In this document: positions 878-47,061 of the stretch, one piece after another
How positions within the stretch are numbered: the stretch's first letter is position 1
How the letters are laid out: each line of letters begins with the position of its first letter
Assembly: GCA_026396285.1 (NCBI GenBank)
Contig: JAPLXB010000022.1
Span: 9,506 to 73,505 of the forward strand
DNA: 64,000 nt
Direction: 5' to 3'
DNA from: Candidatus Micrarchaeota archaeon
Lineage (GTDB): Archaea > Micrarchaeota > Micrarchaeia > Norongarragalinales > JAPLXB01
Notes under the pieces: model-generated
Seen by the model: only the letters and a program-made list of their open reading frames with translations
Told to the model about the DNA's origin: nothing
Database searches by the model: none
Program-made: the position numbers and the translations under genes

Positions 878-1290
878 TACAACTGCATTGATTAAAAAGT
901 TGGGAGCGAGGCCGTACCCCGCCTTCTGTTCCGGAGCCTGAAAGGCCTACACCGGTTGCGCGAAGCGCAACCCAGGCTTATCCGCGGCATTGGACTGAGC
1001 GGGCATTTGCCCTTGCACTTAGCCAGGCACGTTTCATCCCGCGCAGCTTCAACGGTCGGCGCCAACCCGGCGATGCGAAGCACCGCCAAGCAGGTTTTCG
1101 TCATTCCTCTGCTGTTTGGGTCTCGTTTCTGCTCCCGGCTCCTGCATGACACAGGGGGAATTGCTTCCCTTGAAGCGCTACCCCGGCAACGCGGAGCGTT
1201 GTCCTGGCAGCGCCAGTGGGCGGAAGTTCCTCAGCGCCGCGGCCTTTGAAGCCGCGGTACCGACAGCCGCGCACCTCGCTCCCGTAGACA

Positions 1291-2603: not shown

Positions 2604-3122
2604 GAAATCACCGAAAAAACAGTGGATTCGCTTGTTTAAATGATTTCCGCGGCCGGCGGCTGCACGCGCAATGCTTGCGCTAACGGGTTTTGAAAAAATG
2701 GCTGCGCCGGGTTTTTTTCACGCAGCATTGGTCGTTGGTCCCTCGGGGTAGTGTCCACAAGCCAATGGCAAGTATCGTTACTGCATCAAGAAAATTGCCA
2801 TTGGATTGTGAAGAATGGCCTTTAGTGGCGGTTGGCTCAATGCTCGCTTTCGCTCGCATCTTCCACCTCCGCTCTATCAAACCCATCTGCTATGGGCGGC
2901 CTATGCTGTCTCGTTTTGGGGCCGGCTTCGTCCTTAGTTAGACCCCGACGGGATGCAGTATCAGTAGCTACCTCGGTCCTCATTTAAGGAAATCAGACTG
3001 GGACAGTTTCTTCACGACCGCTCCCGCCGAGTATGCCTTCAGGACTTATCCGATGGCGCGTGGCTACGCGGCATGCGTTGACACAACCGCATTACTAGAG
3101 GCGCCGACTCCCCGTTCCTCTC

Positions 3123-3267
3123 TTGAGCCTGGGCACTGTCCGCGAAACTGTGCAGTCCAGGATAGACTGCGGGAATTTTCACGCAACTGTTGACGACAAT
3201 TCACGGACTTTCGTCTCGTGCCGCCATCTGTTGCGCTTACCGAAAAATATGCGGGCCTTGCCCAGTG
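3123..3267 (-). other. Putative intron/insertion (about 145 nt) splitting the 23S sarcin-ricin loop
   Basis: In rRNA sense the gene reads GAGTAC[145 nt]GAGAGGAACGG. Removing the insert restores the universal AGUACGAGAGGAAC. Confidence 0.5.
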
Positions 3268-3449
3268 TACTCAGGGAACCTTACCCTCAGACAGCAAAGC
3301 ACTTCTAGGAGATGCCACCGAACTGTCTCGCGACGTTCTGAACCCAACTAACGTGCGTTTTTAACGGATGAACAACCCGACCCTTGGCGGCTCCTGCACC
3401 ACCAGGATAACGCGAGCCGATAGCGATGTACCAAACCGCGTGGTCGATT

Positions 3450-3644
3450 AGCCCTTTTCAAGGCAATTTTCCTCACAGTCGTGGTACGAGTTGGTTTCGT
3501 GACCATCGTTCGAATCAGTCGATCGCCGACTGAACGTAGAAATTTTTTGGGACTCCTGCGCCCGAATCGGCGCGACTTGAAACGAACAGCCTCGCACCAC
3601 GAGAAAATCACCATACCCTTCCATGAAAACACGGAAGAGGAAAA
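3450..3644 (-). other. Putative intron/insertion (about 195 nt) in 23S domain V
   Basis: In rRNA sense the gene reads CGAGAGTTCAT[195 nt]AATCGACCACGCGGTTTGGTACATCG. The conserved sequence is ...GAGUUCAUAUCGACGG..GUUUGGCACCUCG. The insert has no ORF. Confidence 0.5.
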
Positions 3645-6600
3645 ATGAACTCTCGCACGCGACGAGCCTGTTACCCCCGGGGTAGCTTGTCTGACAGAAC
3701 GGGCCCCCAGTAAAAGGGACACCGTTGTTCGCTAAGCCCGACTTTCGTCTCTGCGGACCATTTTGTTAGGACCACAGTCAATCCGGCATTTGTCTTTGAC
3801 CCTCTACAGCGCATTTCTGACGCGCTTGAGCCGAATATTAGGCGCCTTTGTTTTTTTATCGAAGGCGTACCGCCCCAGCCAAAACGCCCATCAGCAGCTG
3901 TCCATTTCTGTTAGAAACACAGTCAAAGAATAGCAGTGTCACACTTTCGCCTATCGCCGCCCCGGAAGGCGGCGCATAACGGCTCCTGCTTACGCTTTGA
4001 TCCCCCAACCGTATTCCAACTGCAAACTGCGTTTAAGCTCCACGGGGTCTTCGTTTCCCCCTAGAAGTCCTCGGCATGTTCACCGAGTAGTAGGTTCACC
4101 AGGTCCAAAGCTGGGACAGTGGGACGCTCGTTACGCCATTCATGCAAGCCGCCAATTAAGCGGCGAGGTATTACGCTACCTTAAGAGAGTCAGAGTTACT
4201 CCCGCTCTTTAACGGTCCTTCGCCCCCTTGAAAGGAGGTTTAAGATCCCGCCAGTGAGCAGGCGTCGGCACCCGTGCACAACGTTTCCATCTTGCGGGTA
4301 CCTGTGTTTTTGCTAAACAGTCGACGTCCCCTTGTTTACAGCCCTTTTTCGCGCTCGGGCGCTATCAACCAAATCATAAGCTTAAAAGCGGGCGCTTTCG
4401 CGTCCGCGGGTTAGCATTTCATGGGTTGTTCATTTCTTCACCGCGTGAAAAAGAGTCACTGCGACCTACCAATCCCCTTCGATGTGATCCGCGAACCCGA
4501 TTGCGTGGAACGCAATCAAGCCGCGTATAATCTCTGGAGAGAGGTAGGCATCCCTTCTTCCGAAGGTATGGGACTAACTTGCCGAATTCCCTAGCTTTGG
4601 TTCTCCTGCCACGCCTTGGCTTTTTCTGCCAGGGGCACCTTTCAGTAAACGTTTTCTTTTGGTGAAGCTTTTCTTTTCCAAAAGAAAAGGCTCAGTACTG
4701 GTTCTTGGTACGGTCTAATGGGATCCATTCCCTCACTCTTTTCAGGGGCTCGTGGAATCGGCCCAACCCTTTCGGGCTATTCCCTGCTTGGGCGCATGCT
4801 CCTCGTTACGAGACTTCTGCGCTCTGTTCAGGTTAACCACCCTCTCGGGTGGTGGGCTTGTCCGCAAGCGTCAAATGAAGGACTTGCGTTGCCGCGCGTA
4901 CCCACTAGGCACACGAATGTTAACGTGTTTCCCTTTCGGCTTCACGGTTACGTTTAGCCTTAGGACCGGCTTACTCTTGGTCGACTAGCGTTGCCAAGAA
5001 ACCCTTGCCCTTCCGGCGTCCAGGAAACGAGTAACAGGACGACGCTCCGCGTCGTCGTGTTAGTTCTCGCCTGGAATTGATGCTACTAGCACCAGGATCT
5101 TCGTCGCGACCCGGTCCACACGACCTCACGGCCGTGCTTCTACCCGGGCCCCGCGCCCTCCTAATCGGTCACGAGATTTCCTCTCGTGCGCTGGAGTATC
5201 GGTGATGCGCTTAGTCCCGATAGTTTACAGCGCCGCAGTCCTTGACGGGTCCGCTGTTACGCGTTGTTTAAAGGATGGCTGCTTCTGAGCCTACCTCCCC
5301 GCTGTCTGAGAACCATGACGCCTTGTCTTAACACTTAGCGCATGCTTTGGGACCTTAGCTCCAGTAGGGGTCGTTCCCCTCTCGGCGTACGCGCTTATCT
5401 CGTACAGCCCAACTCCCAGCGTCTTAAACGCTGACGGCTTCGGAGTTTGACAGGAAAGTGAGGATTTTACTCCCCGTTCTTCCCAGTCGGTTGCTCTACC
5501 CGTCAGCTGTCTCGGCTGAGGCTGTCCTGAGAGACACTTCGGAGGGAACCTGCTAATGCCGGCCTCGAATGAACTTTCATCCCTAGGCACGAGTCACCCC
5601 AGCGGCTGTCCAACCTTTTTGGTGAAGCTTTTTGCGTACAAAAAGGTTCTTAGACCAGCACGGGTTGCGGGCCTCCGCCAGCCTTACGGCCGGTTTCGCC
5701 CTGCTCGAGTCTAGATCGGTCCGGCTTCAGGTCTCAAACGAGTGACTCAAGGCGCTTTCGCACCCTCCCCCTCGCGCAACAAGTGCGTTGCGGGGACTCG
5801 CTTTCGCTTTGCATTGTGTGCTCGCCACTCGCATGAACTCCCTGGCCCTTGCTTCGAGAAGTATGATGCAACACTGGTTACTCCTTTCGGAGGTCATTCC
5901 TTTTGCGCCGCATCTTCTTGTAACCACCCAGTTTCAGATTCTTTGCACTGCCCTTTCGGGCTGCTTTTCAGTTTTCCATCACTGTACTGGCTGCGCTATC
6001 GGTCTCGGATTATATTTAGCGTTTGAAGTTAATGCTCCGGCTTTCCCACGCCCAATCCGGGGCGCGGTACTCTGGATCCCACCACACCCGGCGGTCGTTC
6101 GCTTACACGGCTTTCACGTTCTATGGCAAAGCTTTCCAGCTTTCTTCAGCTCCGGCTGCCGGCGTTAAAAGGTGGTCCCTGAACCCCACATCTGAACCGC
6201 CTTGCGGCGGGTCATTCGGTTTGCGCTATTCCGCTTTCGGTCGCCCTACTTGCGGAATCCTGGTTAGTTTCTTTTCCTCTCCCTACTGAGATATTTCAAT
6301 TCGGAAGGTCTTCTCTCCTCTCGGAGTTATTCGGGAACCCGCGGTTCAAAGCCTCCGTGCGGCTACCCGCGGCTTTTCGCAGCTTGGCGCGCCCTTCGTC
6401 GCTATCCGAGCCCAACCATCCACTGAGTGGCATAAACTAGTAGCACTACTCCTCGGGAACCAACGACCTATGCTGCTTCATGAAAACGAAAACGCGTGAC
6501 CGTAGTCAGCGTTTCCTCAGCGCTTGGTTCGACGACGCCCCGGGAAGGGGACTTACTCGCGAACTGCCATTCCTTTTCCAACGATTTTTACTCGCCGAAA

Positions 6601-6673: not shown

Positions 6674-6776
6674 TGGACTCGGTGGGATTTTCATCCCCGC
6701 AGAAATGCACGCAGGGTTTTTGAACCCACGACCTCCTGCTTGCAAAGCAGGCGCGCTGCCACTGCGCTACGAGCCC
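6674..6776 (-). tRNA. tRNA-Ala(UGC) with a roughly 31-nt intron in the T-loop (16S-23S spacer tRNA)
   Basis: The reverse complement reads GGGCTCGTAGCGCAGTGGCAGCGCGCCTGCTTTGCAAGCAGGAGGTCGTGGGTTCAA[AAACCCTGCGTGCATTTCTGCGGGGATGA]AAATCCCACCGAGTCCA. The acceptor stem has the G3:U70 Ala identity pair. The anticodon loop CUUUGCAAG gives UGC. The T-stem GUGGG/CCCAC encloses 38 nt instead of 7. CCA is not encoded. Confidence 0.8.
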
Positions 6777-6973
6777 AAGCCGTGCTTGGTTGCGGAAGTG
6801 ACTCCGCAACAGTCGCTATCCCGGCGAACGCGAACCTGCACCGGCGATGGCTTTAGCCATCGCCAAGGTTGTCCGGCGTCCGCCAAGGCGTTTTTCCAGG
6901 CTCCAAGAATTGCATTGACCAAAGGAAATTGACTTTCCTCAGATCTCTCCAAATTAGTTCTTCCAACCAATTG

Positions 6974-8583
<1,610 letters not shown>

Positions 8584-19852: not shown

Positions 19853-22800
19853 ATGGGTGGATTGAGGGCTTCAGCGGCCTTACTCGTAGTTTTCGCGCTA
19901 TTCAACATAGCCCTGATGGCGCCCTTCGCCTCGGCGTACGGTTTCGTCCAGCCAAAAACCGTTTCAACCAAAAACTTTGTTACGGTGACGCCCACGCCGG
20001 TGCCAGAGCCAACCACGGTGCCGGATTCAGCGGTTTCAACGGCTTCAAGCCAGCCCGGCCAGGCGGTCCAGACGGCTCCGGCCGGCCAAAAGACGGTTTC
20101 AACCACTTCCATTCCGTCAGTCGCTTCCACGAAACCAAGGCAAATGACTGGCTTAATGGTTGCAAAAAGCGCCATCGTCTCAGGATGCGCCGAAGGCGGG
20201 GACTGCATCGTTTCCTCAGACACTACATTGGGCAGGACAGTGAATTACCGTTCCTTCACGATTCCCTCAGGCGTCGTCGTGACAGTCGACGGCTCGCTCG
20301 TCATCAACGCCAGGGACGTCACCATTGACGGTTCAATGATTGCCGACGGCGCAGGCGGCGGAAACGGAAAGGACGGGGAAATCTTCGGCGGAAACGGCAA
20401 CGCCGGAATAGACGGCACAAGCGGAGGAAGCGTAACAATCAACGCGAACGGGAAGGTTTCAATCGGCGGGCGCGTCACTTCAAACGGAGGAAACGGCGGG
20501 GACGGAGGGGACAACGATTGCCTGTATTCAGTGTGCCGCGCAAGCAAGGGCGGCAACGCCGGAAACGGCGGCACTATCTCAGTCAACGCAGGCGACCTTG
20601 TAGTAACCGGAACAATGCTTGCAAACGGCGGATACGGTGGCAAAGGAGGTTTCGGCGACGGGTGCGACGGCCACGGCGGAAACGGCGGCACAGGAGGCAG
20701 CGGCGGCACGATAAGCCTCAAGTACGCGACTTACTCCGTCCGCTCGGCGCCGCAAGCGAACGCGAACACCAGCGACAAGTTTGCAAACCTCGGCGCAGAA
20801 GCGTTCAACACGATGTCAAGCATTTTGTTAAGCCCGCTCCAAACCTTTGCTGGCGGGGGCGGGAAAGGCGGGGGCCACGACTACACGTTCCCGTGCAGCA
20901 TCGACGGCGGCGGTTCAAACGGCCGCGATGGCGCCAACGGCGCAACAGGCGCAGTCAACACCATCCAGAAAACCCTTGCATCAATCACAATCACTCCGTC
21001 AGCCGCTTCGGTGAAGGCAGGCGATTCAGTCACTTTTAATGCCGCTGGAACCGACGGCGAAGGAAAGCCGTTCACAATCAACCCTTCGTGGTCAACTGCA
21101 GACCAAGACAAGGGAACAATCACATCTTCAGGGACTTCTGCGACGTTCACGGGCAAAAAAACCGGTTCAACCACGCTTACCGCCACCCAGGGTTCAGTGA
21201 GCGCGAGTGCTTCAGTAACAGTTGTCCCGGGCGCGCCAGCGTCAATCACGCTGTCCGCAAGCTCCCCGACGGCAACTGCGGGCCAAGGCGTGACAATCAC
21301 CGCAGTAGTCAAGGACTTTGAAGGAAACACTGTTGCAGATGGTACAAACATTTTGTTTTCCGCAACCGACGGCTCCGCAACCCCGGCGAGTGTTTCAACA
21401 ACTGGCGGCAGCGCGGCCACAACGCTTTATTCAACAGTCCCTGGAACCGCAACGGTGACTGCCTCGGCTAATTCCGTAACTCAGTCGGTTTCAGTGACTT
21501 TCAACGCCGGCCCGGCTGACGCCGGTTCGTCAACGGTTTCAGCGAACGTGGCCACAATCCCGGCAAACGGGGTAAACGAATCCATTATAATAATCACGTT
21601 GAAGGACGCGTTCGGAAACCCGGCTGCCGGCAGAAGCGTCTCGCTTTCGTCAAGCAGGGGAGCCGCCGACGTGATAACCCCACTTGTAGCCACAACAGAC
21701 GCAAACGGCGTCGCGACGTTTTCAGTCAAATCCGGCACGCCCGGCACCTCCACCATCGCGGCCACTGACTCCTCGGACGGCGTCACGGTTTCCCAGACCG
21801 CGGCAGTCGCTTTCGTGGACCTCGTCCCGCCAGTCCTGACTTTCACTGCGCCGACGCCCAACAACCAAGCCATCACCACGAACTACACCACGATAACCAT
21901 TTCGTCTTCCAAGCCGCTTTCCACTGCAATCCTCTCATGGAATGGCGCGAACGAAAACATGGCGGGCAGCGGAACCACTTGGACAGTGCAGAAAACCAGC
22001 CTCGCGAACGCGAACTATTCCTTCCAAGCCATGGGAACAGACGCCGCAGGAAACCAGGGCTCGACTGAAAAAAGATGGGTCGTCATCAACTACGCCCAGC
22101 CCGACACTGTCCCGCCGGTTTCGAATTCACCGCCCGACGCCCAGTATGAAATCGGCAGCACCGCAACAATCCCGTGGGTCCTTTACGACGACCGCGGCCC
22201 CGGAACCTATTCGGTGACGAAAAACGGCTTGGCTTACATTCCCGCGACGCCGTGGACAAACGCCTCAAACCTCGCGGTTCCAGTAGACACTTCAACCACC
22301 GGCGCGTGGAACTACGCCATTTCATTCACTGATTCTTCAGGCAACGCCGGCGCAGGCGACACGGTAACAATCACTGTTTCGGACACAACGCCGCCAGCAT
22401 ACCGCGCCGTCACAGCGAATTCATCCGACCACAACCTGCCTGCGACGTTTAGCGCCTACTGGACAGACAACGCGGCGCTTTCGGGATTCATTTTCTCAAC
22501 CAACAACTCGGGCGCGTGGCTCAACGACTCGTGGACGCCGTTTTCAAACGCATGGAGCAACGCCACGAAAACACTTGCAAACCAGAACAACGCCGCAATA
22601 GGGTGGCGCATCTATGCAAATGATTCGTCCAACAACTGGAACGACACTGGAACCCAGGTAATCGTCACCACGAACACACCGCCCGCAGTCACGGCGCCTT
22701 CGCTTGACAACGCGAACCCCCTCCCATTTGACGTCGTGACGTGCATTGCCGGCGCGTATTCGGACGCGAACAGCGACCCGCTGGCGCAGGCGTACTGGAA

Positions 22801-25800
22801 ATGGTTCAAGAACGGCGCGGACGCAGGCGCAGCCGCGCAGGCACTCAACCTTTCATCAATTGCTGCAGTCCCCGGCGACATTGTAACTTGCGCTGAAATC
22901 GTTTCCGACGGCTTCGACAACTCAACACAAGCCAATTCAACGAACACCGCGACAGTGGCTTCGCCGGCTGACTCGCAGGCGCCGCAGTGGAGCAATAACA
23001 AAACCACTCCCGCCAGCCCCGTTGCTTACTCGCCGGCGCAAACCCTCCAACTCAACGTCACCTGGACTGATGACTCAGTGGTCACGCAGGCACTCCTCGA
23101 ATGGAATGGCGCAGTCAACTATTCAATGGGCAAGGCTGGCAGCGAATACTACCACTCGCTTCCGCCGCTTGCCGCAGGCACTTACTCGTGGCGCTCGCTT
23201 GCAAGGGACGCGGTCGGAAACTGGAACGCGACTCCGGCATGGCCATATGTTGTTAACCAGGTGACTTCATCGTGCTCGCTTTCATTCAACCCCCCCTCGC
23301 CTGCTGTTTACGGCACCGCAGTCAATGCGTCGTGTTCGTGCACCAACCCGGAGGCCACGGCGGCGCTTTACAGGAATGGCGCGGACGTCACCGCTGCCGA
23401 AAACAAGCAATTTACTGTCCTTGGCGCGGGAATCCACTCATACGAATGCAATTCCACTGCCTCCCAGAACTACACGAGCGCCTCGGCAACAGCCTCGTTC
23501 ACGGTCACCCAGATGGCCACGTCAATGCGCTTGTATTTCAACGGCTCTGAAGCGAATGCAGTCGTTGTAAAGGGCGTGAATTCAACAGTCAACGTCACAG
23601 CGGCCCTGAATGCAACGCCTCCGTTCGCGCTTTTCCTGAACGGCTCGCAAATCAATTCCGGCGCCTCGCCACTGGCCAACGTTTCCGACTGGGGCGTTGG
23701 CTACTGGAACTTCACGACCGCGTTCGCCGGCAACGCTAACTATCTGCCCGCGTCAAAAACCCTGTTCCTCACGGTAATCAACCCCCCGGACGCTGTTCCG
23801 CCAGCGGTGGCTTTGAACGCCCCCTCGGACAATTCTTGGAGCGCTGTGAAAAGCATCCAATTCAATTACACACCGGCAGACAACGTTGCGCTCTCGGCCT
23901 GCACGCTGTGGAACAACGAATCGGTTTGGGGCGCCAAGGCAGGCAATTCAACGCCGCTCGCCAACGGCTCAATAAATTCAATCCAGTTCGCGTTCGCTTC
24001 GGACGGAGTCTACAAGTGGAGCGTGCAATGCTCGGACAATTCAAGCAACTCAGCGTTCGCGCCAGCCAACTGGACGATAAAAATCGATTCCACTCCGCCC
24101 GCGTCGAATTCGCCGCCGGACGCGCAGTACGGGATTGGCAGCGTTGCCAGCATTTCATGGACACTCACCGACAACGTGGGGCCCGGGCTTTACCGCGTGC
24201 TGAAAAACGGCACCGCAGTCGGCGGCTGGAGCGCGTGGGCGAACAACACCGCCGTGACGATCCCGGTGGAGACGTCCGCGCTAGGGGCATGGAATTACAC
24301 GATATACTATAACGATTCCTTGGGCAGCTTCGGCGCGCCCGACACAGTCATCGTGACCATTGGCGATTCCCAGCCACCCATTTACTCCGCAGTTGGCTCA
24401 AATGGAACTGACGGCGCGGGCGAAGCAGTGACCGTCTGGGCATACTGGACTGACAACGTGGCGCTTAGTGCCTATGTTTTCTCCACGAACAACTCAGGCG
24501 CATGGGCCAACCAGACCGGTTGGATGTTCTATGCCAATGACTCCAGCGGCAACTTGAACGCAACGCCGATTCAGGCAATAGCCACGGTTGACAAAGTCCC
24601 GCCCACAATCACTTTTGTTTCACCCACTCCTGCGAACGGTGCAGTGCTCGACGCCGATGCCGTGATGATGAACGCGACGCTGTCAAAGAACGGCGGCGCG
24701 CTCCTGGAATGGACTTGCAGCAACGGCACTGCGGCTAACTTGTCCATGCTCGGCGGAGGCACGAACTACTACAAGAACATGACCGGCCTCAAGAACGGGA
24801 CGCACTATTACCGCGTGTGGGCCAACAACTCCAACGGCTACTGGAACACCAGCGAAACAAGGAACCTGACTGTCCCGCCGTTCGTCAGGGTCGGGAGCTT
24901 CCCGGAAGGCAGGGCCATGAAATTGAAGGTTTTCAATAACTACATGTATTTCGGAACTGGTTACAACGCCGCGGTTTACCGCACTTCAGACGGCGTGAAC
25001 TGGACGCTTGCGGCCGACTTGTCGTCCGTGCGCTTCGTTGAGGCGATGGAGGTTTTCAAAAACCAGCTTTACATAACGACCGGCGGGCCGAATGCCGGCG
25101 ACGGGAAAATTTACACCACTTCCGACGGCGTGCTGTGGTTCATGGTGCTTAATTCTACCCAGGTGCACATCACGTCCCTCGCGGTATGGAACTACACCGA
25201 GTTCTGCGGCGGCGAAACGCTTTACGCCGGCACCTACCTTAACGCCGGCTCCGGGCACGCCTATTTCACCTGCGACGGCTGGACGTGGTATGACGACGGG
25301 GACCAGTTTTCGGGCGTGTGGTCAATCCACCAGTTCGGCACAAGGATGTATTTCGGACTCGGGGACGGGTGGATCACCAACAGAAGTTTTGAAAACACCA
25401 GCGCATGGAGTGCCTTCAACTTGGGCGACACGAACGTGCTCTCGATGGAAGTCTTCAACAACCAGATTTACGCGGGAACCGCTAACAAGCACGTCTGGAA
25501 CTCCTCAACCGGCGCAGCGTATAATATGTCCCTCGACGTGTCGCCTGAAACGCAGGTGAATGCGTTGAGTAATTCCTCGATTGACTCCAGGATTTACGCC
25601 GCCTCGCTTGGCCCGAGTTCCACGACGATATGGTCTTCATCCAACGGCGCGGACTGGCAGGCAGTCTATACGCCGCCGGGAATGAAAATGACTGCTGGCT
25701 TCGCGGACTTCAACGGCACCGGCGAAAACAGGCTTTATGCCGCGATAAGCGGGCCTAACTATAGTATTGTCAACGGCGGCACAGCATACGTGTACAAGTC

Positions 25801-25813
25801 AACGTATCCATGA
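19853..25813 (+). CDS. Giant secreted surface/adhesin-like protein (1986 aa) with Gly-rich beta-helix-like region, Big_2/Ig-like domains and BNR/Asp-box-like beta-propeller repeats
   Basis: Signal peptide MGGLRASAALLVVFALFNIALMAPFASA. A GGNGxDG repeat region. ITITPSAASVKAGDSVTFNA (Big_2-like) and several Ig-like blocks. C-terminal repeats with SxDGxxW (TSDGVNWT, TSDGVLWF, SSNGADWQ). Dozens of N-glycosylation sequons. Confidence 0.6.
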   Translation: MGGLRASAALLVVFALFNIALMAPFASAYGFVQPKTVSTKNFVTVTPTPVPEPTTVPDSAVSTASSQPGQAVQTAPAGQKTVSTTSIPSVASTKPRQMTGLMVAKSAIVSGCAEGGDCIVSSDTTLGRTVNYRSFTIPSGVVVTVDGSLVINARDVTIDGSMIADGAGGGNGKDGEIFGGNGNAGIDGTSGGSVTINANGKVSIGGRVTSNGGNGGDGGDNDCLYSVCRASKGGNAGNGGTISVNAGDLVVTGTMLANGGYGGKGGFGDGCDGHGGNGGTGGSGGTISLKYATYSVRSAPQANANTSDKFANLGAEAFNTMSSILLSPLQTFAGGGGKGGGHDYTFPCSIDGGGSNGRDGANGATGAVNTIQKTLASITITPSAASVKAGDSVTFNAAGTDGEGKPFTINPSWSTADQDKGTITSSGTSATFTGKKTGSTTLTATQGSVSASASVTVVPGAPASITLSASSPTATAGQGVTITAVVKDFEGNTVADGTNILFSATDGSATPASVSTTGGSAATTLYSTVPGTATVTASANSVTQSVSVTFNAGPADAGSSTVSANVATIPANGVNESIIIITLKDAFGNPAAGRSVSLSSSRGAADVITPLVATTDANGVATFSVKSGTPGTSTIAATDSSDGVTVSQTAAVAFVDLVPPVLTFTAPTPNNQAITTNYTTITISSSKPLSTAILSWNGANENMAGSGTTWTVQKTSLANANYSFQAMGTDAAGNQGSTEKRWVVINYAQPDTVPPVSNSPPDAQYEIGSTATIPWVLYDDRGPGTYSVTKNGLAYIPATPWTNASNLAVPVDTSTTGAWNYAISFTDSSGNAGAGDTVTITVSDTTPPAYRAVTANSSDHNLPATFSAYWTDNAALSGFIFSTNNSGAWLNDSWTPFSNAWSNATKTLANQNNAAIGWRIYANDSSNNWNDTGTQVIVTTNTPPAVTAPSLDNANPLPFDVVTCIAGAYSDANSDPLAQAYWKWFKNGADAGAAAQALNLSSIAAVPGDIVTCAEIVSDGFDNSTQANSTNTATVASPADSQAPQWSNNKTTPASPVAYSPAQTLQLNVTWTDDSVVTQALLEWNGAVNYSMGKAGSEYYHSLPPLAAGTYSWRSLARDAVGNWNATPAWPYVVNQVTSSCSLSFNPPSPAVYGTAVNASCSCTNPEATAALYRNGADVTAAENKQFTVLGAGIHSYECNSTASQNYTSASATASFTVTQMATSMRLYFNGSEANAVVVKGVNSTVNVTAALNATPPFALFLNGSQINSGASPLANVSDWGVGYWNFTTAFAGNANYLPASKTLFLTVINPPDAVPPAVALNAPSDNSWSAVKSIQFNYTPADNVALSACTLWNNESVWGAKAGNSTPLANGSINSIQFAFASDGVYKWSVQCSDNSSNSAFAPANWTIKIDSTPPASNSPPDAQYGIGSVASISWTLTDNVGPGLYRVLKNGTAVGGWSAWANNTAVTIPVETSALGAWNYTIYYNDSLGSFGAPDTVIVTIGDSQPPIYSAVGSNGTDGAGEAVTVWAYWTDNVALSAYVFSTNNSGAWANQTGWMFYANDSSGNLNATPIQAIATVDKVPPTITFVSPTPANGAVLDADAVMMNATLSKNGGALLEWTCSNGTAANLSMLGGGTNYYKNMTGLKNGTHYYRVWANNSNGYWNTSETRNLTVPPFVRVGSFPEGRAMKLKVFNNYMYFGTGYNAAVYRTSDGVNWTLAADLSSVRFVEAMEVFKNQLYITTGGPNAGDGKIYTTSDGVLWFMVLNSTQVHITSLAVWNYTEFCGGETLYAGTYLNAGSGHAYFTCDGWTWYDDGDQFSGVWSIHQFGTRMYFGLGDGWITNRSFENTSAWSAFNLGDTNVLSMEVFNNQIYAGTANKHVWNSSTGAAYNMSLDVSPETQVNALSNSSIDSRIYAASLGPSSTTIWSSSNGADWQAVYTPPGMKMTAGFADFNGTGENRLYAAISGPNYSIVNGGTAYVYKSTYP

Positions 25814-31471: not shown

Positions 31472-31594
31472 GGGCCCGTAGCTCAGCTTGGCTAGACCAA
31501 CTGCTTGGGCGATGCTTCGCATCGCCGGGGTAGGCGGGGCTACAGCAGCTGGCTTTTAACCAGAAGGTCGTGGGTTCAAATCCCGCCGGGCCCG
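31472..31594 (+). tRNA. tRNA-Lys(UUU) with a roughly 48-nt non-canonical intron in the D-arm
   Basis: Exon 1 is GGGCCCGUAGCUCAGCUUGGCUAGA (31472-31496). The intron is 31497-31544. Exon 2 is GCAGCUGGCUUUUAACCAGAAGGUCGUGGGUUCAAAUCCCGCCGGGCCCG. Spliced this gives a 75-nt cloverleaf with a 7-bp acceptor stem GGGCCCG/CGGGCCC, discriminator G, a D-stem GCUC/GAGC restored only after intron removal, and anticodon loop CUUUUAA. Confidence 0.65.
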
Positions 31595-31638
31595 CTAAAT
31601 GGATTGGGTGATGCTTGGGGCATTACCGGGTGTTTCGC

Positions 31639-35752: not shown

Positions 35753-36904
35753 TCACGGCTGCGTCCATTCTATTTCGTAGTACTCGTACTTGCTGCCCGG
35801 AAGCTCCACTCTCTTCACCCGGTAGTGAGTGATGGAAGTTTCGCGGTCGCAGATGGAGAGTATCAGTTCAAGGCCGACTTCCTTCGCGCGGCGCAGCGCC
35901 TGTGCCAGTTCCTGCCCCCCGATTTCCTCCTCTTCGCTTAGGGCCAGCATCACGAACTTCGGCTTGTCTTCCCTCGGGTTTTCTATCGCCCCGTGCTTCC
36001 GGTGGTACAACAGGAAGTCTAGTTCGGCGGCAGTCTCCTTTTTTTCGCCGGGAATCGCGAGGATGAACGTTTTTTTCACGCCGTGCGCCACGCGGATGGC
36101 GCGTGCCCATTCGCTGATTAGCATCTTGCTGTCGCGGGGGAACACGTGGATGACGTGCTTGGAGTGCATCCACTCCTCGTTCTCGAGCGTCGGTGACGCG
36201 CCCGGGAAGTAGAGGCGGAAGTGGGTGCCGAACTTGAAACCGGTTTTGAGCACGAAGCCGCGGAGGCGCCAGTCCTCGTAAACGTCGTACAGCGCGTTGA
36301 AGTCCTGCCGCCTTTGCGTCGCTTCCTTCACGAGCCGGGCTTCCTTGATGTTCAACACGTATCCGCCGTGGCGCATGAGGAAAAGCGTCTCGTACGCGTC
36401 GAGTTTGTTGAATTTCCCGTGCTTCCGCGCCTTGTACGTCCCGTACTGGCCGAACCAGTCGCGCTCATAAAGCGCCAGGCCTTTTTCCTCGTCGTCAATG
36501 ACGCTCATCAAGTCGTCGTACAAAAACAGGCCTCTGGCTTTCACGCGCGGGCAGTCAAAGTGCTTGGAAGGGTATTTCACCACCGGGCTGCGGCCGTAGT
36601 TGCCTTCGGCCTCGTCCATGGGCCTTGCCACGAGCCCGCGGTCGCGCCAGTCGCGGTAGCAGAAATAGCGCGCCATGAACTTTTTTCCCTGGAGTTTTGA
36701 CGCTAGGCGGTTGAAGGAAACCTGCTTGCCGTTGTGCGTGCAGGAGGCGTTCCTCACGTCCATCAAGTACAATGCTTCCACCGGCATTAGCTCCAGGACG
36801 TTTTTCCCGGTTTTTTTCCCGAAAAAGCCGCGCTCAAGCGCCTGCTCGGAAGTTATTTCCTTTGCCAGCACGCGTTCTCCGTCAAATTCAATAGTGACTG
36901 CCAT
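35753..36904 (-). CDS. endA: tRNA-splicing endonuclease EndA, long single-chain multi-unit form (about 383 aa)
   Basis: The true start MAVTIEFDG is at 36904. The 647-aa ORF-track version has a low-complexity spurious N-extension. Unit 1 is degenerate (YFCYRDWRDRGLVA, no catalytic triad). Unit 2 is catalytic: ALYDVYEDWRLRGFVLKTGFKFGTHFRLY...HSKHVIHVF...AHGVKK, carrying the Tyr/His/Lys triad. A further roughly 90-aa C-terminal segment resembles the last strand-helix-strand of an EndA C-domain (FVMLAL...AQALRRAKEVGLELILSI). Confidence 0.75.
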   Translation of the reverse strand: MAVTIEFDGERVLAKEITSEQALERGFFGKKTGKNVLELMPVEALYLMDVRNASCTHNGKQVSFNRLASKLQGKKFMARYFCYRDWRDRGLVARPMDEAEGNYGRSPVVKYPSKHFDCPRVKARGLFLYDDLMSVIDDEEKGLALYERDWFGQYGTYKARKHGKFNKLDAYETLFLMRHGGYVLNIKEARLVKEATQRRQDFNALYDVYEDWRLRGFVLKTGFKFGTHFRLYFPGASPTLENEEWMHSKHVIHVFPRDSKMLISEWARAIRVAHGVKKTFILAIPGEKKETAAELDFLLYHRKHGAIENPREDKPKFVMLALSEEEEIGGQELAQALRRAKEVGLELILSICDRETSITHYRVKRVELPGSKYEYYEIEWTQP

Positions 36905-37085
36905 TGGGCGTCTCCTCCGCGGGCACCAAAACCCCTTGATTGTCTGCTGCCCGGCGATTGAGTCGGCGAGCCTCTGCGGCTCTTTTAATATTCGCGCTGC
37001 CTTGATTAAAAAAGCGACTGCTTTGCAGCGGAGCCGGCGGGCCTGCCCGTCCTCCGGTCTGCCGCGTGCGGCGGGGGTAGCGGGA

Positions 37086-38363
37086 ATGGGTTTGCTTGAC
37101 GGCCTGGCGGGTTTCTGGAAAAAGCCCGGACCCAAGCCGGCTGCCGGGCGCAGGGAAATGCGCCTCGGCGAACTCGAGTCCTTCCTGAAAACGGAAAGGG
37201 CGGGAAAGCTCGCGCCTTTTGCGGAAAAATCGCGGGACGCGTGCGGAAAAATACTGGACGAACTCGCCGACGCCGCGCGGGCCGCGGAATCCCTCAGGGA
37301 CGCGGAGCCGACCGGCAAATGGAGCCGCATCGGCGAACAAATGAGGGAAAACTTCATCACACGCATAGTCCCGACCCTTGGAATCGCGCGCCACGGCGAA
37401 GGCTTTGAAGCCGCCGCCGAGTTCCACTCCAAGGCGTTCGCGGCAATCTCGGCGTGCACGAAAATATTGTCGGACAACCGGTACCTCCTGCACTTCTTTC
37501 CCAAATCCATGGGCGGTTTCGCGAAGAGGATGAACGCGGCGTCGGCGCTCGTTGAGGAACTCGGCAAAATCGTGCAAGGGGGCCGGCAGGCGGCCGCGGG
37601 GTTTGACGCGGCGGTTGGCGCGCTGAGGGAACGCGAGAAAACGCTCTCGGAGAAGGCTGTTGCCGAGAAGGAGATGGGTGAGTTGGAGGCGTTCAAAACC
37701 GGTTTGAAAAAGAGGATTGCGGAAGAGACTGCGGCCGCGTTGCCCGGGGGAAGGGGGCTTGGCGGCGCGGTTGCCGGAGGAGGCGCTTACGGGGCTGTTG
37801 AAAAAATCGCCGGCATTGAAAAGCGCGTTGGGGCGCTGAAGGCGGAGTTGGCGGTGATGCTGAACCCCCTGGATCGGCTGTTTAGGAAGTTGGAAAAAAT
37901 TTCCCTTGAGAAGCGCGTGGCTGAAAAAGCCGCTTTTTACGCGGCCGGCCCCGCCGACGCAGTGGTTGAAGGCGGAGAGGAAGGGTTGGAGGAATTGAAG
38001 CGCCTTGCAGAAGAAGTCGGCAAGGAACTCGCCGCCGGCCGCTTGGAGACGGACGGGGAGAAGAGGAAGAAAGCAGTGGCTGCTCTGGAACGGATTGACT
38101 TTGGAAAAGTTTCCGCGGCAGTGAACGAACTGGGTTCGCTTGAGAAGGAAAAGGCCGCGGCCGCAGCAGTGCTTGAAAGGGAAAAGGCCGCAGAGCGCGA
38201 GAGGCGGGACTTGGAGGAGGAGCTTGCGGCGGTGGAAATGAAGAAGGTGGCGTTGGAGGAAAAAATACGCGGCGCGGCGAAAAAACTCGCCGAATCCGTG
38301 GCGGGCATTGAAAAAAGCGCTTCCGCGGCCGCTGGCGTTGAAATAAAAATAGCCGCTGAATAA
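37086..38363 (+). CDS. Ala/Glu/Lys-rich coiled-coil protein (cytoplasmic), first gene of the filament supercluster
   Basis: 425 aa from the ATG at 37086. The longer ORF-track version overlaps endA on the other strand. Heptad-like EELAAxxAALE repeats run throughout. No TM. It ends 25 nt before the first class III signal-peptide gene. Confidence 0.4.
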   Translation: MGLLDGLAGFWKKPGPKPAAGRREMRLGELESFLKTERAGKLAPFAEKSRDACGKILDELADAARAAESLRDAEPTGKWSRIGEQMRENFITRIVPTLGIARHGEGFEAAAEFHSKAFAAISACTKILSDNRYLLHFFPKSMGGFAKRMNAASALVEELGKIVQGGRQAAAGFDAAVGALREREKTLSEKAVAEKEMGELEAFKTGLKKRIAEETAAALPGGRGLGGAVAGGGAYGAVEKIAGIEKRVGALKAELAVMLNPLDRLFRKLEKISLEKRVAEKAAFYAAGPADAVVEGGEEGLEELKRLAEEVGKELAAGRLETDGEKRKKAVAALERIDFGKVSAAVNELGSLEKEKAAAAAVLEREKAAERERRDLEEELAAVEMKKVALEEKIRGAAKKLAESVAGIEKSASAAAGVEIKIAAE

Positions 38364-44845: not shown

Positions 44846-45559
44846 TTGATTGAAATGGCTGCTGACGAAAACATTGAGACAGTCATTGACCGCTTGGTCG
44901 ATTTCGTGAAATTAAAAGGCAGGGTCAGCGCGGTCGAGGCCGGGCGGGCGCTTGGCATGAGTTCCGGCCAAGTCGAGGGCATTGCCCGGCTGCTTGAGGA
45001 CAACGGGCTCGTACAAGTGCATTACACCCTTATTGGCACGGAACTCGCCGCGGTTGGAAGGGATTTGAAGAAAAAAGAGGGGGAAAAAAGCCGTGCAAAC
45101 GAGCCGGGCGCCGTGGAGGCGTACAAGGACTTCGAATCCTTCGTCAAGGAAAGCGAGGACATTTTCGAGTTCCTCAAGGAAGAGGTCTTGAAAAAAATGA
45201 CTGCCGCCGAGTCCCTGCTGGACCGGCTGGAAAAAGAGAAACTGGACGAAAACGACAAGACCGCGGTCAGGAAGGAACTCCGCCGGGTGACAAGCACCCT
45301 CAACAACTTCGAACCCACTCTCCAAAAAATCGTGCACGGGGAAAAGGAACTTAGGAAGCGCATAAGGGAAATCAGCAAGAGGACGGCCGCTGCCGAGAGA
45401 AGTAAACCCGGGATTTGGGACGGCATCAGGGACTTTGTTGCAAAATTTAAGCGCCGGAAGAAGGGGAAAATTCCCGCTCCAAGCGCTTCTCCGAAGTCGG
45501 AGAAGCGCAAAAAGCTTTTGGAACGACTCAGCCTTTCCCGCAAAAGGGTGCTGAAATGA
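44846..45559 (+). CDS. Cytoplasmic wHTH-like plus coiled-coil protein, translationally coupled to the filament ATPase
   Basis: 237 aa. The N-terminal roughly 70 aa (VIDRLVDFVKLKGRVSAVEAGRALGMSSGQVEGIARLLEDNGLVQV) looks like a winged helix. A charged coiled coil follows. Its stop overlaps the ATPase start (ATGA). Confidence 0.45.
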   Translation: MIEMAADENIETVIDRLVDFVKLKGRVSAVEAGRALGMSSGQVEGIARLLEDNGLVQVHYTLIGTELAAVGRDLKKKEGEKSRANEPGAVEAYKDFESFVKESEDIFEFLKEEVLKKMTAAESLLDRLEKEKLDENDKTAVRKELRRVTSTLNNFEPTLQKIVHGEKELRKRIREISKRTAAAERSKPGIWDGIRDFVAKFKRRKKGKIPAPSASPKSEKRKKLLERLSLSRKRVLK

Positions 45560-47058
45560 AAGTGCTTGCAAAATACGTCATCCAAAGCGAGAACGTGCCG
45601 GCAGAGGTTACCATCGCCCAGCGCGAAGAAGAGTACATAAACACCTACGAACTCAAGCACGCGAAGGTTATGGAGGCAACGAACGTCGTCCTTAATTTCC
45701 TGAAGGAGAAAATCATTGAAGGCGTCGACATCAGGATTTCCGAAATAATGGATCCGCGCGAGGCCGAGCGCGTAAAGGAAAAAATAATCCCAACGGCCCA
45801 CGAACTCGTCAGGAAGGAACTGCCGGGCGTGAACAGGGACGAGGAAGACATCCTAGTAGGGCGGCTTGTCCAGGAAATGCTCGGACTAGGCGAAATGGAA
45901 CTCCTCCTCGCAGACGACGAGCTTGAGGAGATAGTCGTCAATTCTTCAAAAGAGCCAATCTACGTTTATCACAAGAAGTTCGGCTGGCTCAAGACCAACG
46001 TATCAGTCACGTCAGAGGAGCAGATTCACAACTACGCTTCCATCATCGGGAGAAAAGTCGGGAAACAAATCACTAACCTCAACCCGCTCATGGACGCGCG
46101 GCTCCTCAGCGGAAGCAGGGTCAATGCCACGCTGTTCCCCATCTCCTCAAAGGGCAACGGTTTCACGATAAGAAAATTTGCGAAAGACCCGTGGACCATA
46201 ATCAACTTCATCAACCCCAAGATAAACACCCTCAACGCAGAAACCGCCGCCGTAATCTGGCAGGCGGTGCAGTACGAAATGAACATAATCGTTGGCGGCG
46301 GCACCGCTTCTGGAAAAACCTCTTTCCTAAACGCCATACTTGCATTCTGCCCGCCCAACCAGAGGATTGTCTCAATAGAGGACACGCGCGAACTCGTGCT
46401 CCCCGACTTCCTCCACTGGACCCCGCTCGTCACCAGGGAACCGAACCCGGAGGGCAAGGGCGGGGTGGAAATGCTCGACTTGATGATAAACTCGCTCCGC
46501 ATGCGGCCCGACCGGATAGTGCTGGGCGAAATCAGGCGGCAGCGCGACGCAGAAGTGTTGTTCGAGGCAATGCACACGGGCCACGCCGTATGCGGGACCC
46601 TTCACGCGGATGACGCGATGCAGGTCAAGTCGCGGCTCACGAGCCCGCCCATAAACCTGCCGGAGGAAATGCTGGGCGCCCTTCAACTCACCGCAGTCCA
46701 GTACCGCCAGAGGAGGACCGGCATCAGGAGGACGTATGAAATCGCCGAATTCATGCCCGAGGGGAAGACGATGGGCATAAACACCGTTTACAAGTGGGAC
46801 CCGAAGAGCGACAGGCTGGAAAAGGTCGGGGAGGGCCTGCGCCTCATCAGCGAGCTGTCAATGCACACTGGCATGAGCATGAAGGAGATGCGCGAGGATC
46901 TGGATGACAAGAAGGACGTCCTCAACTACATGAGCGAACACCAGATTGCCTCGGTCAACGAGGTTGGAAAGGTCGTCGCGTCCTATTACCGCGACGGGGG
47001 ACGCGTGACAGAAGGAGTCCGCAAGAAAACGCCGCCCCAGAAACTCTTCGGCCGGTGA
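45556..47058 (+). CDS. Type IV filament/secretion ATPase, FlaI/TadA/GspE family (module 1)
   Basis: 500 aa. Walker A GGGTASGKTS. An Asp box. Walker B VLGEIR-type. A His box (MHTGHAV). The N-terminal domain resembles archaeal FlaI/PilB. Confidence 0.85.
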   Translation: MKVLAKYVIQSENVPAEVTIAQREEEYINTYELKHAKVMEATNVVLNFLKEKIIEGVDIRISEIMDPREAERVKEKIIPTAHELVRKELPGVNRDEEDILVGRLVQEMLGLGEMELLLADDELEEIVVNSSKEPIYVYHKKFGWLKTNVSVTSEEQIHNYASIIGRKVGKQITNLNPLMDARLLSGSRVNATLFPISSKGNGFTIRKFAKDPWTIINFINPKINTLNAETAAVIWQAVQYEMNIIVGGGTASGKTSFLNAILAFCPPNQRIVSIEDTRELVLPDFLHWTPLVTREPNPEGKGGVEMLDLMINSLRMRPDRIVLGEIRRQRDAEVLFEAMHTGHAVCGTLHADDAMQVKSRLTSPPINLPEEMLGALQLTAVQYRQRRTGIRRTYEIAEFMPEGKTMGINTVYKWDPKSDRLEKVGEGLRLISELSMHTGMSMKEMREDLDDKKDVLNYMSEHQIASVNEVGKVVASYYRDGGRVTEGVRKKTPPQKLFGR

Positions 47059-47061
47059 AGC

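What the first reader, a model, noticed from the sequence alone, without database searches (positions are those of the whole stretch)
3123..3267. About 145-nt insertion splitting the sarcin-ricin loop of 23S rRNA
In rRNA sense the gene reads ...CCCTGAGTAC-[145 nt]-GAGAGGAACGGGGAGT. Excising the insert recreates the universal SRL AGUACGAGAGGAAC exactly. An insertion at the elongation-factor binding loop must be spliced out. It has no ORF. Together with the other insertions it indicates intron-dense rRNA genes.
Basis: partly seen in the sequence, partly recalled or inferred. Interest (0 to 1): 0.65.

Follow-up and report, generated by a model that had tools for sequence, protein, structure and literature searches.

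The report
Spliceable intron splitting the sarcin-ricin loop
The 23S rRNA gene of this ultrasmall archaeon (Micrarchaeota-like) carries a 144-base intron inside the sarcin-ricin loop, the ribosome's universal docking site for translation factors. Its ends fold into the textbook signal for the archaeal splicing enzyme, which is encoded 32 kb away in the same window.

Summary
The insert is 144 nt, not 145, at window 3123..3266 on the minus strand; base 3267 is the exon's C2658. It lies between E. coli C2658 and G2659. Removing it restores AGUAC-GAGAGGAAC exactly.

The junctions form a canonical bulge-helix-bulge (BHB) motif:
- outer helix GUUCCCU/AG(A)GGAAC
- central helix GAGU/GCUC
- bulges AC|A and AA|G
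- inner helix CUGGGCA/UGCCCAG

Cutting after the second bulge base gives exactly the required exon junction.

I found 21 other distinct introns at the same site, 106-207 nt long, all with Micrarchaeota-type exon flanks (all ten genome hits are Micrarchaeota MAGs bar one unclassified archaeon). In 18 of the 22 sequences the central helix always pairs, and all 7 inner-helix pairs show compensatory changes.

The family shares a covarying internal core that ends in a K-turn-like signature. No Rfam family matches it, and it has no ORF. The window also encodes an epsilon2-type splicing endonuclease (E=3.6e-130 to ARMAN-2 EndA).

Four more BHB introns lie in the same rRNA operon. This is a known kind of element at a site I could not find described. 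No RNA data were available.

The parts
3123..3266 (-). SRL intron, 144 nt, inserted between E. coli-equivalent C2658 and G2659 of 23S rRNA
   Evidence: cmscan insert of 153 vs 9 positions. Sequence read directly. BHB-defined splice sites.
3267..3279 (-). 5' exon part of the BHB. Outer-helix strand GUUCCCU (3279..3273). Central-helix strand GAGU (3272..3269). First two bases of bulge 1, A3268 and C3267; the third bulge base is intron A3266.
   Evidence: Direct reading. Targeted BHB test. Constrained fold forms this helix set. Pair counts.
3259..3265 (-). Inner helix h', 5' strand CUGGGCA
   Evidence: Pairs with 3129..3135. All 7 pairs show compensatory changes across 18 homologues.
3123..3135 (-). 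Intron 3' end. Inner helix 3' strand UGCCCAG (3135..3129). Central-helix partner GCUC (3128..3125). Bulge 2 bases A3124 and A3123; the third bulge base is exon G3122, which is G2659.
   Evidence: The central pair G3272-C3125 covaries across homologues (AU 13, GC 3, GU 2).
3114..3122 (-). 3' exon start GAGAGGAAC. G3122 is the third base of bulge 2. AG(A)GGAAC is the outer-helix strand, with A3119 bulged.
3179..3238 (-). Conserved intron core. Stem Pa GCGCAAC/GUUGCGU. Invariant GAUG/CAAC helix with an A.A mismatch. Stem Pb GGCGGCA/UGUCGUC. Apical K-turn-like motif.
   Evidence: Alignment and consensus fold. Covariance model R1 finds exactly one copy per locus, only in the SRL intron. 95.9% of cells pair and 8 of 13 pairs show compensatory changes.
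3201..3217 (-). K-turn-like apex. Non-bulged strand G3217 A3216. C-stem hairpin GAC-GAAA-GUC (3215..3206). 3-nt bulge CGU (3205..3203). G3202 A3201.
   Evidence: Signature N-GA-[hairpin]-NRU-GA-A in all 19 distinct sequences of the model-based alignment, with AA replacing GA in 2. Calling it a K-turn is inference from the sequence pattern.
35753..36904 (-). Splicing endonuclease gene (EndA, epsilon2 type), 383 aa from the ATG at 36904. The mechanical 647-aa ORF 35753..37696 is over-extended at its 5' end.
   Evidence: Pfam tRNA_int_endo and tRNA_int_endo_N. E=3.6e-130 to PDB 4fz2 over residues 270-647. 4FZ2 is ARMAN-2 EndA (PMC3488258). Counterparts of Y236, H251, K282, R275, W384 and the ARMAN-specific-loop residues Y160/K161 are conserved in the printed alignment. 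Start codon.
2803..6451 (-). Host gene: archaeal 23S rRNA, 3649 nt against a 2987-position model
   Evidence: Rfam RF02540, 2232.8 bits.

Best explanation
This is an archaeal bulge-helix-bulge (BHB) intron in the 23S rRNA gene of a Micrarchaeota-type (DPANN) archaeon, inserted between C2658 and G2659 of the sarcin-ricin loop.

In the precursor, the 5' SRL strand is held in an alternative pairing. GAGU pairs with the intron's 3' end GCUC to form the 4-bp central helix. The intron's two ends pair to form inner helix h' (CUGGGCA/UGCCCAG). GUUCCCU pairs with the 3' exon AG(A)GGAAC to form outer helix h. This places each splice site in a 3-nt bulge (AC|A and AA|G).

The host's epsilon2-type splicing endonuclease, encoded at 35753..36904, cuts after the second base of each bulge. 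An RNA ligase (RtcB in characterised archaea; not located here) joins the exons to give AGUAC-GAGAGGAAC and probably circularises the intron. Only then can the SRL fold.

Shown: the insert, the BHB motif and its covariation, the conserved intron core, the endonuclease gene, and co-inheritance with the host rRNA.
Inferred: cleavage, ligation, circularisation, and protein (L7Ae) binding to the intron's K-turn-like apex.
For: 1. Excision restores the SRL. cmscan shows a 144-nt insert in the H95 loop, the sequence confirms it, and the site maps to C2658|G2659.

2. At the single pair of positions fixed in advance by homology there is a complete BHB: central helix 4/4, inner helix 7 bp, 3-nt bulges. 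For 13 pre-specified pairs the chance expectation is about (6/16)^13, roughly 3e-6 (my calculation).

3. The cleavage rule, between the 2nd and 3rd bulge bases, was taken from the ARMAN-2 EndA-RNA structure paper (PMC12397907). It reproduces the required junction.

4. There are 22 distinct introns at the same site, 106-207 nt long. Ten are from genome assemblies: nine MAGs labelled Micrarchaeota and one unclassified archaeon. Eleven are from metagenome contigs with the same exon type.

5. On 18 of these, 90.7% of cells pair, against 40-49% when the partner strand is slid by 1-3 columns. The central helix is 100% paired, and its one variable pair covaries (AU 13, GC 3, GU 2). All 7 inner-helix pairs show changes on both sides.

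6. The BHB-constrained fold costs only 3.5 kcal/mol more than the MFE (-72.9 vs -76.4), and it forms the predicted outer helix.

7. EndA is present in the window.

8. Four more inserts in the operon obey the same rule.

9. Nearest neighbours by flanking exon and by intron fall in the same lineage groups in most cases. Exon and intron distances correlate (Mantel r=0.40, p=2e-4), which points to vertical inheritance.

10. There is no ORF in the intron. No group I or II or other Rfam hit overlaps it.
Against: - There is no RNA-level evidence: no junction reads and no circular intron reads.
- The unconstrained MFE fold does not form the central helix.
- The outer helix needs a bulged A and competes with the mature H95 stem.
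- A generic BHB scanner is not discriminating on its own. It gave 330 hits in the operon against about 297 in shuffles, so the case rests on coincidence with the homology-defined junction and on covariation.
- No RNA ligase gene was found among the 20 window ORFs I scanned.
- The comparative alignment of junctions was built in register by me, not derived blindly.
Confidence: 0.88

Rival explanations
1. The intron is more than a passenger. Its conserved K-turn-like core binds a protein such as L7Ae, and its position keeps the SRL unformed. Splicing then acts as a late licensing step for the large subunit, or the excised intron acts as a stable circular RNA. This extends the best explanation rather than replacing it.
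For: The core is conserved well beyond what BHB cleavage needs. GAUGRC and CAACA are invariant. Two stems covary: 95.9% of cells pair and 8 of 13 pairs show compensatory changes. The apex carries N-GA-[hairpin]-NRU-GA-A in 19 of 19 distinct sequences. The model detects lineages that were not in its training set. The intron is inherited with the host rRNA and has no homing endonuclease. The 5' SRL strand is sequestered in the BHB. A quality-control role was proposed for H98 excision in Pyrococcus (PMC7758197).
Against: The K-turn is inferred from sequence pattern only. In one clade (L014 group) the C-stem is essentially absent, and an ordinary hairpin (CCGA/UCGG) is an alternative fold. Conservation could simply reflect folding requirements that bring two splice sites over 100 nt apart together. 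No binding, expression or phenotype data exist. Whether Micrarchaeota without this intron exist could not be tested: the one genome scan looked only for presence, and ARMAN-2 and Mia14 were not among its hits.
Confidence: 0.2
2. The insert is cut out but the exons are not religated, leaving a fragmented 23S rRNA as with bacterial intervening sequences or Pyrococcus H98 excision.
For: Excision without religation occurs in the same rRNA domain in Pyrococcus (PMC7758197). No ligase gene was seen in the ORFs scanned.
Against: The break would fall inside the SRL, one base 5' of the GAGA tetraloop. From established knowledge, a single cut in this loop by alpha-sarcin inactivates ribosomes. The exon sequence on both sides is kept perfectly universal in all 22 variants. 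BHB cleavage products are the normal substrates of archaeal tRNA ligase (established knowledge).
Confidence: 0.04
3. The 144 nt are retained as an expansion segment in functional ribosomes, or this operon is a pseudogene.
For: Another extra segment in this 23S (4337..4528) shows no BHB and may be a retained expansion.
Against: The insert splits the continuous loop that contacts translational GTPases. A full BHB sits exactly at its borders. Covariation maintains the BHB in 18 lineages. The rRNA scores 2232.8 bits end to end. The same architecture recurs in independent assemblies.
Confidence: 0.03
4. It is a self-splicing group I or group II intron remnant, or a transposon-like insertion.
For: Group I introns do occur in Micrarchaeota LSU genes at sites 1923, 1931 and 2593. 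One carrier is contig MNVH01000001, which also carries this SRL intron as L012 (PMC6125680).
Against: 144 nt is too short. No Rfam intron family reaches its gathering score anywhere in the window. Nothing overlaps the intron up to E=10 in the 371-nt scan of window 2920..3290. The 5' exon ends in C, not U, and the intron ends in A, not G. There are no terminal repeats, no target duplication and no ORF.
Confidence: 0.01

Closest known systems
Archaeal BHB introns in 16S/23S rRNA genes of Thermoproteales and Desulfurococcales (e.g. Desulfurococcus, Pyrobaculum, Aeropyrum)
   Same: An intervening sequence in a highly conserved rRNA region. An hBHBh' motif forms from exon and intron sequences at the junction. 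Excision is by the tRNA splicing endonuclease and is followed by ligation (PMC4496867).
   Different: The host is a DPANN (Micrarchaeota-type) archaeon with an epsilon2 endonuclease. The site is the SRL (after C2658), which I did not find in any paper searched. There is no homing endonuclease ORF. Internal structure is conserved across the whole family, whereas Jay and Inskeep report that intron secondary structures are generally not conserved within a locus.
Pre-tRNA BHB introns cut by ARMAN-2 epsilon2 EndA (PDB 4FZ2, 9W2K)
   Same: The enzyme family is the same; the window's EndA matches it at E=3.6e-130. The motif is the same: 3-nt bulges separated by 4 bp, cut between bulge bases 2 and 3 (PMC12397907).
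   Different: The substrate is rRNA, not tRNA. The intron is long (144 nt) and carries its own structured core.
Intron-encoded C/D box sRNA of euryarchaeal pre-tRNA-Trp (from memory, not checked here)
   Same: A BHB intron that carries K-turn-forming box motifs bound by L7Ae.
   Different: The SRL intron has only one K-turn-like motif. It lacks a CUGA D box, and its spacers pair with each other, so it is not a guide RNA. The neighbouring 95-nt intron (2938..3032) does show the full C/D layout.
Group I introns in archaeal LSU rRNA (Nawrocki, Jones and Eddy 2018)
   Same: They occur in the same lineages, and even on the same contig (MNVH01000001 = L012). They also sit at functionally central LSU sites.
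   Different: Those are at LSU 1923, 1931, 2500 and 2593 and are detected by group I covariance models. The SRL intron matches no intron model and has BHB borders.
Excision of helix 98 from Pyrococcus furiosus 23S rRNA
   Same: Post-transcriptional removal of a segment from domain VI/VII next to the SRL, proposed as a late quality-control step (PMC7758197).
   Different: In Pyrococcus the rRNA is left circularly permuted and fragmented, and the segment is not inside the SRL.

Membership tests
Archaeal BHB (bulge-helix-bulge) rRNA intron | Interrupts a conserved stable-RNA gene, and precise removal restores the consensus sequence | tested here: met
   AGUAC + GAGAGGAAC is restored. cmscan shows a 144-nt insert in the H95 loop.
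Archaeal BHB (bulge-helix-bulge) rRNA intron | Two 3-nt bulges on opposite strands separated by a 4-bp helix and flanked by helices (hBHBh') | tested here: met
   GAGU/GCUC central helix, bulges AC|A and AA|G, inner helix 7 bp, outer helix 2+5 bp with one bulged A.
Archaeal BHB (bulge-helix-bulge) rRNA intron | Splice sites lie between bulge bases 2 and 3 on both strands | tested here: met
   The rule (PMC12397907) applied to the motif gives exactly the homology-defined junction.
Archaeal BHB (bulge-helix-bulge) rRNA intron | The motif is maintained by compensatory change among homologues | tested here: met
   18 distinct sequences. Central helix 100% paired, with AU/GC/GU at its variable pair. 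All 7 inner-helix pairs are compensatory. 0 of 500 shuffles reach the observed score.
Archaeal BHB (bulge-helix-bulge) rRNA intron | The host encodes a splicing endonuclease (EndA) | tested here: met
   Window 35753..36904, epsilon2 type, with catalytic and ASL residues conserved.
Archaeal BHB (bulge-helix-bulge) rRNA intron | Exons are ligated (RtcB) and the intron is released, often as a circle | not testable with these tools
   No RNA data. No ligase among the 20 window ORFs scanned.
Group I intron | Conserved P3-P9 catalytic core, U at the exon -1 position, terminal G | tested here: not met
   No Rfam intron family reaches its gathering score in the window, and nothing overlaps the intron up to E=10 in the 371-nt scan. 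The exon ends in C and the intron ends in A. Only 144 nt long.
Group II intron | 5' GUGYG, domain V, 3' AY, usually over 400 nt | tested here: not met
   The intron begins ACUGG and ends UCAA. No Rfam hit.
Kink-turn / K-loop (L7Ae-binding motif) | A canonical stem, a 3-nt bulge, then tandem sheared G.A/A.G pairs leading into a non-canonical stem | tested here: inconclusive
   The sequence signature ...N-GA-[C-stem hairpin]-NRU-GA-A... is present in 19 of 19 distinct sequences, with AA for GA in 2. In the L014 clade the C-stem is reduced to a loop. There is no structural or binding test.
Archaeal C/D box sRNA | C (RUGAUGA) and D (CUGA) boxes plus C'/D', separated by roughly 12-nt single-stranded guides | tested here: not met
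   The SRL intron has no CUGA D box, and the segments between its box-like motifs pair with each other. By contrast, the 95-nt intron at 2938..3032 has the full layout.

The most novel reading that the evidence does not exclude
The SRL intron could be a domesticated, vertically inherited RNA module. Its K-turn core would recruit L7Ae or another assembly factor, while the BHB holds the 5' SRL strand in an inactive pairing. Endonuclease and ligase action would then be the final step that licenses the Micrarchaeota 50S subunit to engage translational GTPases. In sister lineages a second intron 5 nt downstream, after G2663, leaves a 5-nt micro-exon GAGAG. Its central helix (CGAG/CUCG) is complete only after the first intron is removed, which would impose an ordered two-step licensing.
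Probability: 0.15. Interest if true: 0.8.

Novelty: new member of a known kind. Interest (0 to 1): 0.5.

Why it matters
The SRL is among the most conserved sequences in biology, and one cut in it kills a ribosome. An intron at this spot that is maintained by compensatory evolution across a whole clade of ultrasmall archaea has three consequences:

1. It extends the catalogue of rRNA intron sites to the GTPase-activating loop.
2. It gives a natural case in which ribosome function strictly depends on the tRNA-splicing machinery.
3. It provides a compact, conserved intron RNA, with a BHB and a K-turn-like core, on which ideas about introns as assembly checkpoints or stable circular RNAs can be tested.

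There is also a practical point. Such introns break rRNA gene callers and primer or probe sites in DPANN genomes.

Tried and rejected
- **Generic BHB scan of the operon.** It returned 330 candidates against about 297 in shuffles. It is not informative alone, so I replaced it with a test at the homology-defined junctions and with covariation.
- **MAFFT alignment of the archaeal 23S to E. coli 23S.** It mapped the numbering but misaligned everything 3' of the SRL. I used cmscan and blastn against related loci for insert boundaries instead.
- **Non-Micrarchaeota hits of the genome scan.** The Methanomicrobiales (including Methanoregulaceae) and Nitrososphaeraceae hits are not introns; they are a G2659C reading of the SRL. 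The E. coli and Shigella hits are point differences. Two metagenome hits (L028, L037) are chance matches.
- **C/D box sRNA reading of the SRL intron.** Rejected.
- **Other copies of the core module.** I looked in the window and in 33 loci and found none outside the SRL intron.
- **Rfam scan at E up to 10 over the intron.** Nothing was found.
- **Literature.** Six full-text searches plus reading Nawrocki 2018, Jay and Inskeep 2015, the Pyrococcus H98 paper, the CPR insertion paper and others turned up no description of an SRL intron. Kadnikov 2020 on Micrarchaeota is not held.
- **RNA ligase.** I did not find a ligase gene in the 20 ORFs scanned.

Full report
**Observation**

Rfam places an archaeal rRNA operon on the minus strand: 23S at 2803..6451, tRNA-Ala at 6704..6776 and 16S at 6972..8582. 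The 23S is 3649 nt against a model of 2987 positions.

A local cmscan of the 3' end aligns the H95 stem on both sides of the SRL. It shows 153 nt where the model has 9, so 144 nt are extra. In rRNA sense the sequence is ...GGUUCCCUGAGUAC|ACUGGGCAAGG...GUGCCCAGGCUCAA|GAGAGGAACGGGG. The junction has no slippage ambiguity.

The intron is window 3123..3266, 144 nt. Aligned to an E. coli 23S gene (L001), the site lies between C2658 and G2659, directly 5' of the GAGA tetraloop that contains the ricin and sarcin targets. No ORF lies inside the intron.

**What it is**

Applying the archaeal splicing rule to this one pre-specified pair of positions gives a complete hBHBh' motif:
- Central helix GAGU(3272..3269)/GCUC(3128..3125).
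- Bulges A3268-C3267|A3266 and A3124-A3123|G3122.
- Inner helix CUGGGCA/UGCCCAG, 7 bp.
- Outer helix GUUCCCU/AG(A)GGAAC.

I checked the cleavage rule, between the second and third bulge bases, in the ARMAN-2 endonuclease-RNA structure paper (PMC12397907). It yields exactly AGUAC^GAGAGGAAC.

Thirteen pre-specified positions all pairing has a chance expectation of about (6/16)^13, roughly 3e-6 (my calculation). A generic BHB scan is not informative by itself: it gave 330 hits against about 297 in shuffles. The argument therefore rests on this coincidence with the homology-defined junction and on the comparative data below.

Forcing the BHB costs 3.5 kcal/mol relative to the MFE. That is small for a structure that a protein clamps.

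**Relatives**

I scanned both collections with a pattern that requires the universal upstream 23S sequence, then AGUAC, then a base other than G.

- The genome collection returned 20 loci. Ten carry a true insert at this site: nine MAGs labelled Candidatus Micrarchaeota and one unclassified 'archaeon' MAG (DeMMO2_14). The others are a G2659C reading in long-read Methanomicrobiales (including Methanoregulaceae) and Nitrososphaeraceae MAGs, plus two enterobacterial point differences.
- The metagenome scan gave 20 more loci with an insert and 2 chance hits.

Together there are 22 distinct introns of 106-207 nt. All lie after C2658, all start with A, and all end GCUYAN.

On 18 of them, aligned in register at the junctions:
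- 90.7% of cells pair, against 40-49% when the partner strand is slid by 1-3 columns.
- The central helix pairs in every sequence.
- Its single variable pair runs A-U (13), G-C (3), G-U (2). The exon base and the intron base therefore change together.
- All seven inner-helix pairs show changes on both sides.

Nearest neighbours by flanking exon and by intron fall in the same lineage groups in most cases, and the two distance matrices correlate (Mantel r=0.40, p=2e-4). With no homing endonuclease present, this points to vertical inheritance rather than recent mobility.

**Host**

The window's rRNA is 74-86% identical to the Micrarchaeota-type loci and 67-69% identical to the methanogen loci. 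Its endonuclease is of the ARMAN type, as described under 'Machinery' below. I therefore treat the organism as a Micrarchaeota-type DPANN archaeon.

**Inside the intron**

The family shares a core that BHB cleavage does not require. Its parts are:
- A covarying stem Pa.
- An invariant GAUG/CAAC helix with an A.A mismatch.
- A covarying stem Pb.
- An apex reading N-GA-[hairpin of variable length]-NRU-GA-A.

A covariance model built from 10 sequences finds exactly one copy per locus, always in the SRL intron. It also recovers eight lineages it was not trained on. On that model-fitted alignment, 95.9% of cells pair and 8 of 13 pairs show compensatory changes.

The apex has the sequence layout of a K-turn or K-loop: a canonical stem, a 3-nt bulge ending in U, then tandem G.A/A.G. 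This is the same layout as the C'/D' motif of archaeal sRNAs. I rate this reading at about 0.55, because it rests on pattern only and one clade lacks a real C-stem.

The intron is not a C/D guide RNA. It has no CUGA D box, and the segments between its box-like motifs pair with each other. No Rfam family matches the intron, even at E up to 10.

**Machinery**

By Pfam, ORF 35753..37696 (minus strand) carries the tRNA-intron endonuclease N-terminal and catalytic domains. Residues 270-647 align to PDB 4fz2 at E=3.6e-130. 4FZ2 is the epsilon2-type EndA of Candidatus Micrarchaeum acidiphilum ARMAN-2 (PMC3488258).

The likely start is the ATG at 36904, which gives 383 aa. [quoted passage not shown] So are the bulge-binding Arg and Trp, and the Tyr-Lys pair of the ARMAN-specific loop that confers broad substrate range.

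I did not find an RNA ligase gene among the 20 ORFs scanned.

**Context**

Comparison with related operons and targeted BHB tests show four more inserts whose BHB-defined excision restores consensus rRNA:
- 16S 7429..7476, 48 nt.
- 23S 4641..4694, 54 nt.
- 23S 3449..3644, 196 nt, after U2477.
- 23S 2938..3032, 95 nt.

A further extra segment of about 192 nt at 4337..4528 has no BHB at its borders.

**Mechanism and rivals**

The best explanation, at confidence 0.88, is ordinary protein-dependent BHB splicing. The feature specific to this site is that the 5' SRL strand itself forms the central helix, so the SRL cannot fold until the exons are joined.

The rivals are each unlikely, for the reasons listed in the report sections:
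- Excision without religation.
- Retention as an expansion segment, or a pseudogene.
- Self-splicing.

Whether the conserved core gives the intron a function of its own, such as an assembly checkpoint or a stable circular RNA, remains open. I put that at about 0.15-0.2.

**Novelty**

BHB introns in archaeal rRNA are long known. BHB and group I introns in Micrarchaeota LSU genes have been noted, including on contig MNVH01000001, which is my L012 (PMC6125680).

I found no paper describing an intron in the SRL or this conserved intron family. The searchable library omits most subscription journals and the CRW intron tables, so I cannot exclude prior record.

I file it as a new member of a known kind, at a striking site.

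Noticed in passing
window 2938..3032 (minus strand): This 95-nt BHB intron near the 3' end of 23S (AGGC[AU|A]...GUCU[AA|C], inner helix 10 bp) has the full layout of an archaeal C/D box sRNA: C GUGAAGA, 12 nt, D' CUGA, 9 nt, C' AUGAGGA, 12 nt, D CUGA. The D guide matches 23S at window 3677..3688 with 2 mismatches (near E. coli 2434-2445). No target was found for the D' guide. Rfam gives only weak C/D snoRNA hits (E about 1).
   Followed up: partly
window 7429..7476, 4641..4694, 3449..3644 (minus strand): Three more BHB introns in the operon: a 48-nt mini-intron in 16S (GCCG[UG|A]...CGGU[AG|A], inner helix 12 bp), a 54-nt intron in 23S, and a 196-nt intron after E. coli U2477. Excision of each restores consensus rRNA. 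Several relatives lack them precisely at these points.
   Followed up: partly
window 4337..4528 (minus strand): About 165-192 nt extra relative to related 23S genes, in a variable region near E. coli 1730-1755. No BHB lies within 10 nt of either border. It may be a retained expansion segment or an intron with different borders.
   Followed up: no
L014 about 963..1142 (minus strand); also L018, L019, L026/L039, L034, L040/L043, L004: In one Micrarchaeota clade the SRL carries two introns: the one after C2658, and a second of 46-52 nt after G2663. This leaves a 5-nt micro-exon GAGAG. The second intron's central helix CGAG/CUCG uses C2658, so it has 4 bp only after the first intron is removed. 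Its 5' end, AUGGAAC, mimics the displaced exon GGAAC.
   Followed up: partly
L003, L005, L007, L008, L010, L011, L016, L017 (SRL of their 23S genes): Eight MAGs with MFD isolate names (Methanomicrobiales, including Methanoregulaceae, and one Nitrososphaeraceae) read AGUAC-C-AGAGGAAC, i.e. G2659C in the universally conserved GAGA tetraloop. E. coli L021 and Shigella L020 records also show errors at the same GTAC-G context. A systematic basecalling or polishing artefact seems more likely than biology, but this is unexplained.
   Followed up: no
window about 31472..31595 (plus strand): A tRNA-Lys(UUU) gene that ARAGORN misses and Rfam matches only partly (29.1 bits). The acceptor and D-arm (GGGCCCGUAGCUCAGCUUGGCUAGA) are separated from the rest by roughly 45-50 nt. 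Deleting such a segment makes ARAGORN call tRNA-Lys. This is probably a non-canonical intron in or after the D-arm.
   Followed up: partly
window 4650..4694 vs L018:845..889: The 54-nt 23S intron is 95.6% identical over 45 nt to a segment immediately 3' of tRNA-Ala in the 16S-23S spacer of L018. That L018 segment is followed by a second copy of the tRNA 3' end. The window's 16S mini-intron has a similar U-run/A-run hairpin and the same UUCACYRAAAGAAAA motif. This may be a small mobile or duplicating intron cassette.
   Followed up: partly
window 35753..37696 (minus strand): The mechanical ORF for the splicing endonuclease is 647 aa, but homology starts at residue 270 and an ATG lies at residue 265. 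The N-terminal 264 residues are probably not translated, and they overlap other long ORFs on both strands.
   Followed up: yes
window 45556..59735 (plus strand); 19853..25813: Two sets of type II/IV secretion-like ATPase (T2SSE) and membrane platform (T2SSF) genes, probably for pili or an archaellum. There is also a 1986-aa ORF with no family assigned. Neither was examined further.
   Followed up: no
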